64,000 bases of DNA, taken from an uncultured Planctomycetia bacterium (lineage in GTDB: Bacteria; Planctomycetota; Planctomycetia; Pirellulales; PALSA-1355). The translations under genes were made by a program, and so were the position numbers. Positions 47,911 to 53,839 of the stretch are shown here, piece after piece; position 1 is the first letter of the stretch; every line of letters starts with the position of its first letter. The stretch is from the NCBI GenBank assembly GCA_963807715.1, contig CAWECK010000005.1, forward strand, positions 251,194-315,193. Reading direction: 5' to 3'. A model generated the notes under the pieces. The model saw nothing but the letters and a program-made list of their open reading frames with translations. It did not search any database and was not told the origin of the DNA.

Positions 47911-50900
47911 CTAAAACGCACGCACGGGACGAAAGCCGTAGTTGCCGAGACGGGACGACGGCGCGGTGTTGCCGCGATACGCGCTGCGACAGTAGGACGC
48001 GTTGACGGACCAGCCGCCGCCACGGATCACGCGAAGGGAGCCGGCGAATGGGCCGATTGGGTTGTTTAGGGAGCTTCCGTCGTACCATTTCCCGTCATAA
48101 TAATCCCAGCACCACTCCCGAACATTGCCGGCCATGTCGTACAGCCCGAAGGGATTTGGCGACTTCAGCCCCACCGCCCGAACACGGCCGCCTGCATTCT
48201 TGCCATACCACTCGTGCTGCTCCAATTCGGCCACGTCATCGCCGAACCAGAACTGCGTGGTCGTGCCCGCACGGCAAGCATATTCCCACTCCGCCTCGGT
48301 AGGCAAACGATAACCGCCCGCAGCAACCAACAAGATCCAGTTGTCAGCGTCCTTTCGGTAGCAGGGCTTCAACTTCTCCTGATCGGAGAGCCAATTACAG
48401 AAGCTCACGGCATCATTCCAGGTAACTTGTGTCACCGGAGAATCGTCGTTGACCGCGTAGCCGGGCGTCTGCCACGTCCTTTTCTTCTGTTCCGGCGTCA
48501 CCTTCTCGTCGATGGTCTTGCCCGCCGAATCGCCGAAGCCGTATTGTTCGGCCTCGGTGACGAAACTCGTCGCCGCGACGAACTTCTTGAACTGGCCGAT
48601 GGTGACTTCGGTGCCGCCCATCAGCAGCGGCTTCGTGAGCGCGACGCGGTGCTGCGGCATTTCCTCTTTCAGTCGCTGAAACATACCGTCCGTTGGCTTC
48701 AGCTTGTCATTCTCTTCGGCGATCTTGACTCCCTGCGCGTTCTGCTCCGGCGTGCTCCCCATCAGGAACTCGCCGGGTGGGATCAGGACCAGCGTCATGC
48801 CGACAGGGTTTTTCGTTTCAACCGTCGTGCCCAAATGCTTGGCCCAGGCCGCTTGACCAGCGTGGGCTTGCTTGGCGTCGAACGGGGCGATCAGCGGCTT
48901 GGGCTCGTCGTTGCCGGGCAAGCGTGCCGCGGGTTTGGCCGGATCGTCCCATTCGATCTTGCAGTTGGGCAAGGCTTTTTGCAGGGCGGCGACTTGGGCG
49001 GGGGTGATTCGACGACATCCTAGCAAGATCAACTCCCGCAGCGTACCGATCTTCGACAGTGGAGAGATGTCCACCACCTTCGTCCCGTAACAATTCAGAA
49101 CGTCCAGCGGCAACCCGACCAACGGCGACAAGTCGGCGAGCGGGCAACTATCCACGTTCAAATTCGTGAGCGGCAGTCCGGCCAGGGGAGACAGATCGGT
49201 AACCTGAGTGTAGGGGCAGCTCAATCGGCTGATTTGCATTCCCGTCAGCGGCGACAGATCGGCAAATTGTCGACTGCTGTGAATTTTCAACTCTTTGAGG
49301 GATGACAACGCCCGCAGGGGAGAAATGTCGGTCACCTGCTCGGCGGCGAATCCGCACTGCACGATCTGTTTGTCCTCCATCCTGTTTGACGCCTTTCCGT
49401 CAAACCCCGGATTCAATTCCATCAGCTTCTTGCTGACCGCTTCGATCTGCTTCTCGGCAGGCAGGGCTTGAATGTCCTTGACCCACGCTTGGAACGCCGG
49501 TGTGTTCCAGGGCTGGTTGGGCTGAGTGGTGGCTGCTTTGGCCGGATCGTCCCATTCGATTTTGCAGTTCGGCAGGGCTTTTTGCAGGGCGGCGACTTGG
49601 GCAGGGGTGACTTTGGTCTGCTTCAAGTTCACAGCGTGTCAGGTTCTTGCAATCTTGCAACGGCGATAGATCGGACACCGGCTGTTTTGTCGCAATATCA
49701 GGCTCGTCAGAGGCATCCCTTGGAGCGGCGGCAAAGTCAGACGATCTTCGTGCTCGCCGCAAACCAGGTTGCTTGAGCGGCAATTCCTTCGAGCGGTGAC
49801 AGGTCGGACACCGGCGTGTTGTTGAAATCCAAGGTCGTCAGTGGCATCCCTTGCAAGCGGTGACAAATCGGCAACCTGCGTGCTGGCGCACCCGAGGTCG
49901 TCAGTCGCATCCCTCGCAGCGGCGACAGGTCGGACACCTGGCGTGTTGGACGCAATTCAGGCTCGTCAGAGGCATTCCTCTCAGCGGCGACAGGTCGGAC
50001 AACTTACCCTTTGCTGTTCCGAGCTGCCACCGCAGTTCAGATTCCATAAGCCCCGCCAACGCCCGCACCGGCGAAATGTCCGTCACGTTGTCGGTGACAA
50101 ATCCAAACTCCGTCACCACGCCGTTCTCGATCTTGGGCGTACCTTTCCCATCGGCACTCGCCACCTTCCCATCAAACCCCGGATTCAACTCCATCAGCTT
50201 CTTGCTGACGGCTTCGATCTGCTGCTCGGCAGGCAGGGCTTGCGTGGCTTTCACCCAGGCTTGGAAGGCCGGTGTGTTCCACTTTTGATTTGGCTGACCC
50301 GGCGAGGCCCGAGCCCGTGGCACCCGCGGGCAGTTCGCGCAATTTCAATCTAGCGGAATTCAACTGGGGCTGCCCCTTGGTAAATAAACAGGGCAATCTC
50401 CCTCGCGGGTAAAAGTTGGACGGATCGCGAATGTCGGTGGTCGTCGTCCCATTCACTTGCACGACAATGTGATTCCCTTCGGCGATCACGTCGAGCGTGA
50501 ACCATTCGTCGGCGGGCACCGGCGATTGCGTCAATTTGTTGCCGGTGGAGTACGTCGTTGTCTGCGAGATATACACGCTGCCGGTCTTATGCGTTGTCGT
50601 TTGGGCTGCTCGGCGTTGATTTTCGCTTGATAACCTGAGGCGGATGGTCCTTTGCGGTTTCCCGGCTTGATCCCGTTCGATGGACACCCGGAAGAAAATG
50701 CCGGCGCTGGTCCCCGGTCCGACGCGCATTTTGGGCGCGAGGTGGAAGTCGCCGTAATCGCTGCGTTCGGAGAACAGATACGTGTTACCGCCAGTGCCCA
50801 CGATTACGCCATTCTCGACACGCCAATTACCCGGAAACGATGGGTCGGTCTTCCAGCCCGTCAGATCGCGGCCGTTGAACAGCGGCACGAAATCGCCGGC

Positions 50901-53839: not shown

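What the first reader, a model, noticed from the sequence alone, without database searches (positions are those of the whole stretch)
47911..53839. Receptor Ser/Thr kinase carrying two DGR-type hypervariable ligand-binding domains in one polypeptide
Seen: the two FGE/CLec domains differ by many synonymous changes upstream of RVIRGG. Over ~124 bp (47920-48044 vs 51511-51634), however, the scaffold codons are nearly all identical while 12 codons differ only at positions 1-2 with the third base kept: CTT/AAT, GGC/TAC, TCC/(G)AC, GTC/CAC, AAC/CAC, TAC/AGC, GGC/CAC, AAC/CGC, ACC/TTC, CTC/TAC, GGC/TAC, AAC/ATC. This alignment needs one compensating -1/+1 indel in VR-I. GCG/ACG and CCC/GCC differ at position 1, and only two third-position changes occur. 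Established: this is the footprint of DGR adenine mutagenesis of AAC/AAT codons in a template repeat, and CLec/FGE folds are standard DGR targets, normally with one C-terminal VR. Inference: both VRs were written from the same or a near-identical TR. That would make a membrane kinase with two independently diversified sensor heads, interleaved with LRR and DUF1080 modules, i.e. an immune-receptor-like signalling protein in a planctomycete. An internal, non-terminal VR is the unusual part.
Basis: partly seen in the sequence, partly recalled or inferred. Interest (0 to 1): 0.92.

Follow-up and report, generated by a model that had tools for sequence, protein, structure and literature searches.

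The report
Kinase gene with two retroelement-written regions
A planctomycete membrane kinase gene carries two sensor domains whose tips bear the mutation pattern of a diversity-generating retroelement, but the retroelement beside it is only a remnant and this kind of protein is already known from other bacteria.

Summary
VR-I (48036-47920) and VR-II (51626-51510), both on the minus strand, differ mostly at codon positions 1-2 (12/11/3 differences by position). The 300 nt upstream show the opposite pattern (23/28/42). The pattern extends to 11 tightly related copies in this genome, 17 by looser DNA match. Their hypervariable columns coincide with adenines in the template repeat of a relative's intact DGR (23 of 32 against 6 of 82). 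Directly after VR-I lies a truncated Avd gene, 73% identical over 80 aa to the Avd of a complete cassette elsewhere.

No template repeat and no DGR-type reverse transcriptase are in the 7.18 Mb assembly; only a 42-aa relic was found. Whether diversification still runs is unknown.

The gene is not one ORF here. It has at least 13 frame changes, 9 of them single-base insertions. Essential genes (rpoB, typA) are broken too, so assembly error is the likelier cause. An intact paralog (1433 aa) has kinase plus two such regions in one ORF.

Kinase-CLec DGR targets, internal VRs and multi-VR targets are all published. Verdict: new member of a known kind, moderate interest.

The parts
52984..53839 (-). 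N-terminal Hanks-type Ser/Thr kinase domain. The GTG start at 53839 is assumed. The C-terminal lobe continues to about 52830 through frame breaks.
   Evidence: Pfam Pkinase E 6.6e-43 on the 53857-52748 piece, residues 76-291. Single-base insertions near 53099, 53074, 53043 and 52960 relative to an intact paralog.
52585..52651 (-). Hydrophobic stretch, a putative single transmembrane helix between the kinase and the first FGE domain.
   Evidence: Read by eye in the translation of 52747-52229. No TM predictor was run.
51509..52480 (-). First FGE-sulfatase / C-type-lectin-fold domain (FGE-1).
   Evidence: Pfam FGE-sulfatase E 5.1e-50 on the piece 52334-51270. The N-terminal part lies in another frame.
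51510..51626 (-). VR-II, an internal variable region, followed by linker and further domains.
   Evidence: Exact match to the scaffold pattern.
50402..51209 (-). LRR-like stretch followed by a 3-keto-disaccharide hydrolase (DUF1080) domain.
   Evidence: Pfam PF06439 E 5.2e-30, residues 106-269 of ORF 51209-50172.
48950..50344 (-). Linker and leucine-rich repeats, spread over three frames.
   Evidence: tblastn to the LRR parts of intact paralogs. LRR_4 E 6.2e-10. Frame path.
47914..48795 (-). Second FGE-sulfatase / C-type-lectin-fold domain (FGE-2), with its stop codon at 47911-47913.
   Evidence: Pfam FGE-sulfatase E 4.5e-52. Best PDB sequence match is Treponema denticola variable protein 1, 2y3c, E 3.9e-36.
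47920..48036 (-). VR-I, the C-terminal variable region.
   Evidence: Exact match to the scaffold pattern.
47792..47910 (-). VR-to-avd spacer: a CT-rich tract and a 7-bp GC hairpin (47821-47805) just before the avd start.
   Evidence: Fold. A hairpin stands at the same place, with a different sequence, in the intact cassettes L072 and L073. The spacer recurs at C2, C8, C16 and in L071.
47522..47791 (-). Truncated Avd gene. Homology covers residues 1-80 of about 115 and ends near 47552.
   Evidence: NF033474 DivGenRetAVD E 5.4e-10, profile 2-73 of 104, below cut-off. Pfam bAvd E 6.7e-4. 73% identity over 80 aa to the full Avd of L073.
46731..47560 (-). Sequence that takes the place of the avd 3' end, TR and RT. 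It matches the 3' flank of an LRR-ending paralog.
   Evidence: 88% identity over 834 nt to G000:C16:241078-241908, which lies just after the 1099-aa paralog ORF.

Best explanation
The locus encodes a membrane-anchored Hanks-type Ser/Thr kinase. Its part beyond the membrane helix holds two FGE-type C-type-lectin-fold domains separated by LRR and DUF1080 modules.

The last ~39 codons of each lectin-fold domain were written by mutagenic retrohoming from one adenine-rich template repeat of a diversity-generating retroelement (DGR). The same applies to at least 9 further paralogous domains in this genome. Each paralog therefore shows a different binding surface on an invariant scaffold.

VR-I was the cassette-proximal target. 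It is still followed by the cassette's spacer, hairpin and the first 80 codons of avd. The rest of avd, the TR and the RT have been replaced by unrelated flank. Only a 42-aa relic of a DGR-type RT is found elsewhere on the contig. In the assembled genome the diversifier is therefore absent, and the VRs are most likely frozen products of past activity.

The many frame breaks in the gene are more likely consensus errors of an error-prone assembly than real lesions.

What is shown: the footprint, the domain order, the avd remnant, and the absence of TR and RT from the assembly. What is inferred: a single polypeptide in vivo, outside topology of the sensor part, ligand-gated kinase signalling, and the present inactivity of the DGR.
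For: Footprint:
- Codon-position diversity is reversed in the VR (0.315/0.286/0.097) relative to the flank (0.201/0.208/0.391) over 11 copies.
- A is the commonest base at the variable columns, 136 of 318.
- Scaffold mismatches are 0-6 of 75 per copy, against 29-73 of 300 in the upstream flank.
- 23 of 32 variable columns fall on adenines of the colinear TR of relative L072, against 6 of 82 other columns, p = 1e-11.

Cassette remnant:
- Avd match NF033474 E 5.4e-10.
- 73% identity over 80 aa to the Avd of L073.
- In the cassettes that carry those Avd relatives, VR/TR mismatches fall on TR adenines in 19 of 20 (L073), 23 of 23 (L072) and 19 of 19 (L074) cases. A 352-357-aa RVT_1 protein follows in L072 and L073.

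Protein class:
- FGE-2 matches the DGR variable protein TvpA (2y3c) at E 3.9e-36, better than the FGE enzymes at about 1e-22.

One polypeptide:
- The pieces are colinear with intact multi-domain paralogs.
- Paralog C4:202358-206656 is one 1433-aa open frame with Pkinase, two FGE domains and LRR. Both of its VRs belong to the tight group.

Assembly error:
- 9 of 10 indels against intact paralogs are single-base insertions outside homopolymer runs.
- typA changes frame twice and rpoB once.
Against: - No TR and no DGR-type RT were found in 7.18 Mb, so VR-to-TR adenine specificity could not be tested directly for this genome.
- The assembly is scored 72% complete and has 16 contigs. Absence from it does not prove absence from the organism.
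- The gene has more frame changes, at least 13 in 6 kb, than the intact 4.3-kb paralog, which has none. Real decay is therefore not excluded.
- A few scaffold sites are polymorphic, for example CGT/CGC 6:5 and the third base of one GCG codon. This could mean two templates or drift after the last homing.
- No conserved hairpin directly after the VRs was found in 12 copies.
- Topology and kinase activity were not tested. The family has DMG in place of the usual DFG (translations).
Confidence: 0.75

Rival explanations
1. The DGR is alive. An intact avd-TR-RT cassette sits in an unassembled part of the chromosome or on an extrachromosomal element. It still rewrites VR-I, VR-II and the other copies in trans.
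For: - The scaffold is nearly identical across copies, with 0-6 of 75 mismatches, while the flanks differ by 10-24%. That implies homing that is recent relative to paralog divergence.
- The assembly is scored 72% complete in 16 contigs.
- A related organism's contig (L071), only 78-88% identical to this genome's paralogs in blastn, matches the scaffold pattern exactly.
- Remote targets more than 100 kb from the RT are documented (PMC5758913, passages read).
Against: - No TR or RT is in 7.18 Mb. That size is at the upper end of the 3.7-7.9 Mb range for genomes of the family, so little may be missing. The low completeness score may reflect frameshifted marker genes.
- The only cassette pieces present are truncated: avd 80 aa and 47 aa, and an RT relic of 42 aa.
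- Some copies carry indels inside the VR, at C2:47396 and in VR-II. Fresh homing would erase these.
Confidence: 0.3
2. The window's gene is a true pseudogene. It is a decayed member of the paralog family and is no longer translated as a receptor.
For: - At least 13 frame changes in about 6 kb, denser than in the intact paralogs C4 (1433 aa), C1 (1337 aa) and C8 (816 aa).
- The local cassette is itself decayed.
Against: - 9 of 10 mapped indels are single-base insertions, and none is longer than 1 nt. Natural decay would be expected to give mixed sizes and directions.
- Essential genes typA and rpoB carry the same kind of break.
- The FGE-2/VR-I segment 48888-47910 has no indel against its C4 paralog.
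- Amino-acid similarity to paralogs stays high in every piece.
Confidence: 0.25
3. The two FGE domains belong to two or more separate genes: a kinase-TM-FGE gene followed by an LRR-DUF1080-LRR-FGE gene.
For: - Stops occur in every frame in this assembly.
- Shorter kinase-TM-FGE genes of about 800 aa exist in the same genome (C8, C14, C2).
- The FGE-2/spacer/avd module looks inserted in front of an older 3' flank.
Against: - VR-II is of the 'internal' type. In intact paralogs its downstream linker continues in frame into LRR domains (C1 1337 aa; C4 1433 aa).
- No intergenic gap is seen between pieces; successive pieces overlap or abut. Start signals were not searched for.
Confidence: 0.1
4. No retroelement was involved. 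The pattern comes from ordinary paralog divergence, with diversifying selection on binding residues and gene conversion of the scaffold.
For: Large paralog families with lectin-like heads can evolve under positive selection. No TR was found.
Against: - Selection would not hold the third base at C in nearly all variable codons, as seen in 10 or 11 of 11 copies.
- It would not make A the commonest base at the variable sites.
- It would not place the variable sites on the adenines of a relative's TR.
- An avd remnant sits exactly where a cassette would start.
Confidence: 0.03

Closest known systems
Treponema denticola TvpA and its DGR with remote targets (PDB 2y3c)
   Same: An FGE-type C-type-lectin fold with a C-terminal VR. 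It is the best solved-structure match of FGE-2 (E 3.9e-36). One DGR serves several dispersed targets, seven non-adjacent ones according to PMC5758913 (passage read).
   Different: TvpA is a small lipoprotein-type variable protein without kinase, LRR or a second VR (recalled, not tested here). Here there are 11 tight VR copies (17 by looser match) and no TR or RT in the assembly.
Cyanobacterial Ser/Thr-kinase-CLec DGR variable proteins (Vallota-Eastman et al. 2020, PMC7517822; passages read)
   Same: An N-terminal Hanks-type kinase grafted to a CLec domain that carries the VR. Many paralogs are dispersed in the genome as remote targets. The paper proposes that the variable head sets ligand or substrate recognition for signalling.
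   Different: In that paper the TR-like matches lie near the 3' ends of CLec genes, and most variable proteins are predicted to be cytosolic. Here there is a TM helix, two VR-bearing domains per protein, one of them internal, plus LRR and DUF1080 modules, in a planctomycete.
Multi-VR DGR targets of Thiohalocapsa PB-PSB1 (Dore et al. 2024, PMC10907252; passages read), and the three-VR CLec1 target in Wu et al. 2018 (PMC5758913; passages read)
   Same: More than one VR in a single target protein, some of them internal. One PB-PSB1 domain abbreviation list includes a protein kinase domain.
   Different: Those systems have their RT and TR, and diversification was seen in metagenomes. Here the cassette is a remnant and activity could not be tested.
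Planctomycete multi-FGE Ser/Thr kinases annotated 'SUMF1/EgtB/PvdO family nonheme iron enzyme' or PknB/Pkn1 (for example proteins of Anatilimnocola aggregata)
   Same: The same architecture: kinase plus two or more FGE-sulfatase domains, often with LRR and PF06439. 7113 proteins scored E <= 1e-20 against the two-FGE region, and most of the 120 listed cover 97-100% of it.
   Different: I did not examine these proteins for a DGR footprint, and none of the source names listed mentions a DGR. Two literature searches returned no paper in the held library that links this planctomycete family to DGRs.

Membership tests
Diversity-generating retroelement (complete system) | A template repeat homologous to the VR, with differences confined to TR adenines | tested here: not met
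   No adenine-rich copy is among the 17 homologous stretches of the genome. There was none in an in-frame AAC/AAT density scan. All 11 scaffold-pattern matches in G000 are VRs inside FGE domains, and the 32 other family genomes gave 0 matches. One metagenome match was a VR and there were 0 viral matches. As a proxy only, variable columns fall on adenines of a relative's TR.
Diversity-generating retroelement (complete system) | A DGR-clade reverse transcriptase | tested here: not met
   All five RVT_1 matches are large, repeated RTs of 538-576 aa. The 538-aa type carries GIIM, lies within group II intron RNA matches and is therefore a group II intron RT. The 576-aa type carries HNH, and its intron nature is inferred. 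tblastn with the DGR RTs of L072 and L073 finds only those five plus a 42-aa relic at G000:C5:397466-397591.
Diversity-generating retroelement (complete system) | The accessory gene avd between target and TR | tested here: inconclusive
   The gene is present at the right place but truncated: NF033474 E 5.4e-10, 39.5 bits against a cut-off of 80, profile positions 2-73 of 104. It is 73% identical over 80 aa to a full Avd.
Diversity-generating retroelement (complete system) | An IMH and a hairpin/cruciform at the 3' end of the VR | tested here: inconclusive
   An IMH cannot be defined without the TR. No hairpin shared by the 12 copies lies directly after the VR. A GC hairpin is conserved about 100 nt downstream, before avd, in the window, L072 and L073.
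DGR variable protein of the FGE/C-type-lectin class | An FGE-sulfatase/CLec-fold domain that bears the VR in its last ~40 codons | tested here: met
   Pfam PF03781 E 4.5e-52 and 5.1e-50. TvpA is the best PDB match. The VRs end the domains.
DGR variable protein of the FGE/C-type-lectin class | Variation confined to the first two bases of AAC/AAT-derived codons on an invariant scaffold | tested here: met
Hanks-type receptor Ser/Thr kinase | A protein kinase domain with a catalytic loop | tested here: met
   Pkinase E 6.6e-43. HRD and VAIK are visible in the translation. The DFG position reads DMG.
Hanks-type receptor Ser/Thr kinase | One uninterrupted reading frame from kinase through the sensor domains | tested here: not met
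   There are at least 13 frame changes in this assembly. The feature is met in paralog C4:202358-206656. The breaks are probably assembly errors.
Hanks-type receptor Ser/Thr kinase | A membrane-spanning segment with the sensor on the outside | not tested
   A hydrophobic stretch was seen by eye. No predictor was available or run.

The most novel reading that the evidence does not exclude
A single template repeat, lying in the unassembled part of this genome, currently rewrites at least 11 and perhaps 17 variable regions spread over about a dozen membrane Ser/Thr kinases. Several of these carry two heads or an internal head. That would give a planctomycete a combinatorial, somatically diversifying receptor-kinase repertoire, and it would suggest that the very large planctomycete kinase-multi-FGE family in general is a DGR target family.
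Probability: 0.3. Interest if true: 0.65.

Novelty: new member of a known kind. Interest (0 to 1): 0.45.

Why it matters
The kinase-plus-multi-FGE architecture is very common in Planctomycetes. In the searches run here it is not linked to DGRs in the held literature. This locus shows that at least one such family was written by a DGR, with two heads per protein and 11 or more heads per genome. It also shows a cassette caught in decay.

If a live template is found, the family would be a tractable case of a bacterium that diversifies the sensor side of signalling kinases. If none is found, it is a clean example of a diversified repertoire frozen after the loss of its retroelement.

Neither outcome changes what is known about how DGRs work.

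Tried and rejected
- **Reads for within-population variation and for the frame breaks.** The look-up of sequencing runs listed none.
- **TR search.**
  - blastn of the VR region against the whole genome at E <= 10 gave 40 matches, 17 of them homologous and none adenine-rich.
  - An in-frame AAC/AAT density scan of both strands gave 12 windows, none with the scaffold.
  - The scaffold pattern with up to 3 mismatches matched 11 places in G000 and none in the 32 other genomes of the family.
  - The exact pattern matched 1 contig in the JGI metagenomes, a VR of an intact 789-aa kinase-FGE gene.
  - The exact pattern matched nothing in viral contigs.
- **RT search.** PF00078 over the genome and tblastn with two DGR RTs gave only the five large RTs of 538-576 aa (group II intron type) and a 42-aa relic.
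- **Hairpin directly after the VRs.** It is present in VR-II (6 bp, z = -1.55, not significant) but not conserved in 12 copies, so I dropped it as evidence.
- **GC3 frame path.** It is noisy in the kinase part. I used it only to support the frame order downstream of 50300.
- **Not done.** I did not fold the protein or predict a complex, because sequence matches to TvpA and Pfam already settled the fold class. Supplementary tables of the DGR surveys (PMC5758913, PMC8144416, PMC10907252) were not seen. They may list planctomycete kinase-FGE targets.
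Full report
**1. What is at the coordinates**

The feature lies on the minus strand. From a GTG at 53839 to the stop at 47911-47913 the sequence is not one ORF. It is a chain of open pieces in all three frames.

Pfam on the pieces gives, in order:
- Pkinase (E 6.6e-43).
- FGE-sulfatase (E 5.1e-50), ending in VR-II.
- 3keto-disac_hyd/DUF1080 (E 5.2e-30).
- LRR_4.
- A second FGE-sulfatase (E 4.5e-52), ending in VR-I.

A hydrophobic stretch lies between the kinase and the first FGE domain (seen by eye). tblastn with intact paralogs of the same genome shows that the pieces are colinear with single long proteins.

**2.

VR-I is 48036-47920 and VR-II is 51626-51510.

- *The pair.* The two differ at 12, 11 and 3 sites of codon positions 1, 2 and 3. 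In the 300 nt upstream they differ at 23, 28 and 42 sites (p = 0.0014).
- *Other copies.* A blastn of the VR region against the whole genome found 17 homologous stretches. Eleven of them share a nearly invariant scaffold and match a scaffold pattern with at most 3 mismatches. The reversed-pattern control gave 0 matches.
- *Codon positions over the 11 copies.* Diversity is 0.315/0.286/0.097 in the VR against 0.201/0.208/0.391 in the flank.
- *Third base and A content.* The third base of the variable codons is C in 10 or 11 of 11 copies. A is the commonest base at the variable columns, 136 of 318.
- *Scaffold.* Each copy has 0-6 mismatches in 75 scaffold sites and 29-73 in 300 flank sites.
- *Leave-two-out test.* VR-I and VR-II differ at 18 of the 29 columns that are hypervariable in the other nine copies, and at 8 of the 76 other columns (p = 2e-7). 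Five of those 8 are the -1/+1 shift.
- *Where the shift lies.* By comparison with the family, the shift is in VR-II, not VR-I.

**3. Remains of a DGR cassette**

Right after the stop of VR-I come three elements:
- A CT-rich spacer.
- A 7-bp GC hairpin at 47821-47805.
- An ORF that matches NCBIfam DivGenRetAVD (E 5.4e-10, profile positions 2-73 of 104, below cut-off) and Pfam bAvd.

A scan of genome contigs with this ORF found five relatives. Three of them (L072, L073, L074) carry full cassettes:
- In L072 and L073 the Avd has 115-116 aa. The window's remnant is 73% identical to the L073 Avd over 80 aa.
- In all three, a TR follows the Avd. In L072 and L073 a 352-357-aa RT follows the TR; the L073 RT was confirmed as RVT_1.
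- Their VR/TR mismatches fall on TR adenines in 23 of 23, 19 of 20 and 19 of 19 cases.
- L072 and L073 have a hairpin at the same place before avd, with a different sequence.

The TR of L072 is colinear, without gaps, with VR-I over 114 nt. Of the 32 columns that are hypervariable in this genome's 11 VRs, 23 are adenines in that TR. Of the 82 other columns, 6 are (p = 1e-11). This is independent support for adenine-directed writing.

**4. What is missing**

- Homology to Avd stops at residue 80, near 47552.
- From 47560 down to 46731 the sequence is 88% identical to the 3' flank of another paralog on contig C16. The rest of avd, the TR and the RT have therefore been replaced.
- The genome's five RVT_1 matches are large, repeated RTs of two kinds. 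The 538-aa kind has a GIIM domain and lies within Rfam group II intron matches. The 576-aa kind has an HNH domain, and its intron nature is inferred.
- tblastn with the two DGR RTs adds only a 42-aa relic at G000:C5:397466-397591. That is about 98 kb from VR-I and outside the window.
- No adenine-rich TR is present. The contigs hold no N runs.
- The scaffold pattern was not found in the 32 other genomes of the family or in viral contigs.
- It was found once in the metagenomes. That match is a VR at the end of an intact 789-aa kinase-TM-FGE gene, followed by the same spacer cut short before avd. That contig is only 78-88% identical to this genome's paralogs in blastn.

**5. One gene or a wreck?**

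- *Nature of the breaks.* Against intact paralogs, the stretch 53838-51328 has 10 indels. Nine are single-base insertions outside homopolymer runs and one is a single-base deletion. The stretch 48888-47910 has none.
- *Further breaks.* At least three more frame changes follow between 50340 and 49700.
- *Essential genes are broken too.* typA changes frame twice within about 1.1 kb. rpoB is split into overlapping frames of 682 and 859 aa.
- *Fit with assembly quality.* This matches a 16-contig, 7.18 Mb assembly scored only 72% complete. I take the breaks as probable consensus errors (inference), while real decay is not excluded.
- *The architecture exists intact.* C4:202358-206656 is a 1433-aa open frame with Pkinase, two FGE domains and LRR. 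Both of its VRs belong to the tight group.

**6. How it most likely works**

- *The protein.* The sensor part carries two lectin-fold heads. FGE-2 is most similar to the solved DGR variable protein TvpA (2y3c, E 3.9e-36; FGE enzymes score about 1e-22).
- *Established background.* In this fold the variable residues form the ligand-binding face (PMC5758913, introduction passage).
- *Inferred function.* By inference, each head binds a ligand outside the cell and the kinase signals inside. The family of paralogs offers at least 11 different heads.
- *State of the diversifier.* The diversifier was a DGR whose home cassette adjoined VR-I. In the assembly it is dead.

**7. Comparison with what is known**

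All of the following were read as passages only:
- Kinase-CLec DGR variable proteins with many remote paralogs are described in cyanobacteria (PMC7517822).
- Internal VRs, a three-VR CLec target and a kinase-bearing target appear in the survey of Wu et al. (PMC5758913).
- Targets with several VRs, and unequal activity of VRs within one target, are reported in Thiohalocapsa (PMC10907252).

Kinases with two or more FGE domains are abundant in Planctomycetes: 7113 proteins at E <= 1e-20, and most of the 120 listed cover the two-FGE region.

Searches of the held library for DGRs with Planctomycetes and for FGE-sulfatase with kinase and planctomycetes returned no paper that links this planctomycete family to DGRs. 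Supplements were closed and may hold such cases.

**8. Verdict**

- A complete DGR is not present, so the locus fails the membership test for a complete DGR.
- The two-VR and internal-VR features are not new.
- The single ORF is not shown for this gene.
- Overall this is a new member of a known kind: a DGR-written planctomycete receptor-kinase family with a decayed cassette. Interest is moderate.

Noticed in passing
G000:C2:45342-47329 (L036 about 4343-6330, minus strand) and G000:C16 about 466.4-468.5 kb; outside the window: A group II intron is inserted in the CT-rich VR-to-avd spacer of two other paralog loci, at the same spot, equivalent to window positions about 47837-47849. Its parts are Rfam RF02005 and RF00029 and a 538-aa protein with RVT_1 and GIIM. 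A third RVT_1 match with the same score lies at C15:269514-270179.
   Followed up: partly
G000:C5:397466-397591 (L079 3450-3574, minus strand); about 98 kb from VR-I, outside the window: A 42-aa relic of a DGR-type reverse transcriptase, 59.5% identical to the RT of L072 around the conserved IGNLT stretch, with an internal stop. It lies between unrelated genes, and no TR or avd is beside it.
   Followed up: partly
G000:C8 about 249.9-251.2 kb (typA) and G000:C7 (rpoB): Essential genes change reading frame: typA twice, rpoB once. The assembly seems to carry frequent single-base indels, which probably also lowers its completeness score.
   Followed up: partly
G000:C4:202358-206656 (L077 359-4657): An intact 1433-aa paralog. 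Its first FGE domain is of the terminal type, but the stop codon after GFRVVRAF is replaced by a sense codon. The frame therefore reads on into a second FGE domain of the internal type and LRRs. This looks like a gene fusion by stop loss.
   Followed up: partly
window 46731-47560 and 47560-48950: The module of FGE-2, VR-I, spacer and the first 80 codons of avd sits between an LRR C-terminus of the kind that ends other paralogs (KIEWDD...) and the 3' flank that follows such paralogs on C16 and C4. It looks like a roughly 1.4-kb module inserted into an LRR-ending gene.
   Followed up: partly
G000:C2:47396-47552: This VR copy lacks one base inside the variable part, so the 856-aa frame ends in an out-of-frame tail. 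It may be a real lesion or an assembly error.
   Followed up: no
window 47805-47821; L072 about 185-209; L073 about 4969-4989: A GC-rich hairpin with a 3-nt loop stands just before the avd start in all three cassettes, with different stem sequences. It may be the target gene's terminator or a cassette element.
   Followed up: partly
window 43445-44335 and 44348-46633 (minus strand): Downstream neighbours are a stand-alone 296-aa FGE-sulfatase protein, which was not among the VR-like DNA matches, and a 761-aa protein with a TAT signal and a SASA esterase domain.
   Followed up: no
L057 (G023:C228), about 900-1560: A genome of the same order has a separate VR-Avd-TR arrangement with an FGE-type VR. 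Weak Avd-family matches occur in 16 of 31 genomes searched, counting G000, and 2 are above the cut-off.
   Followed up: no
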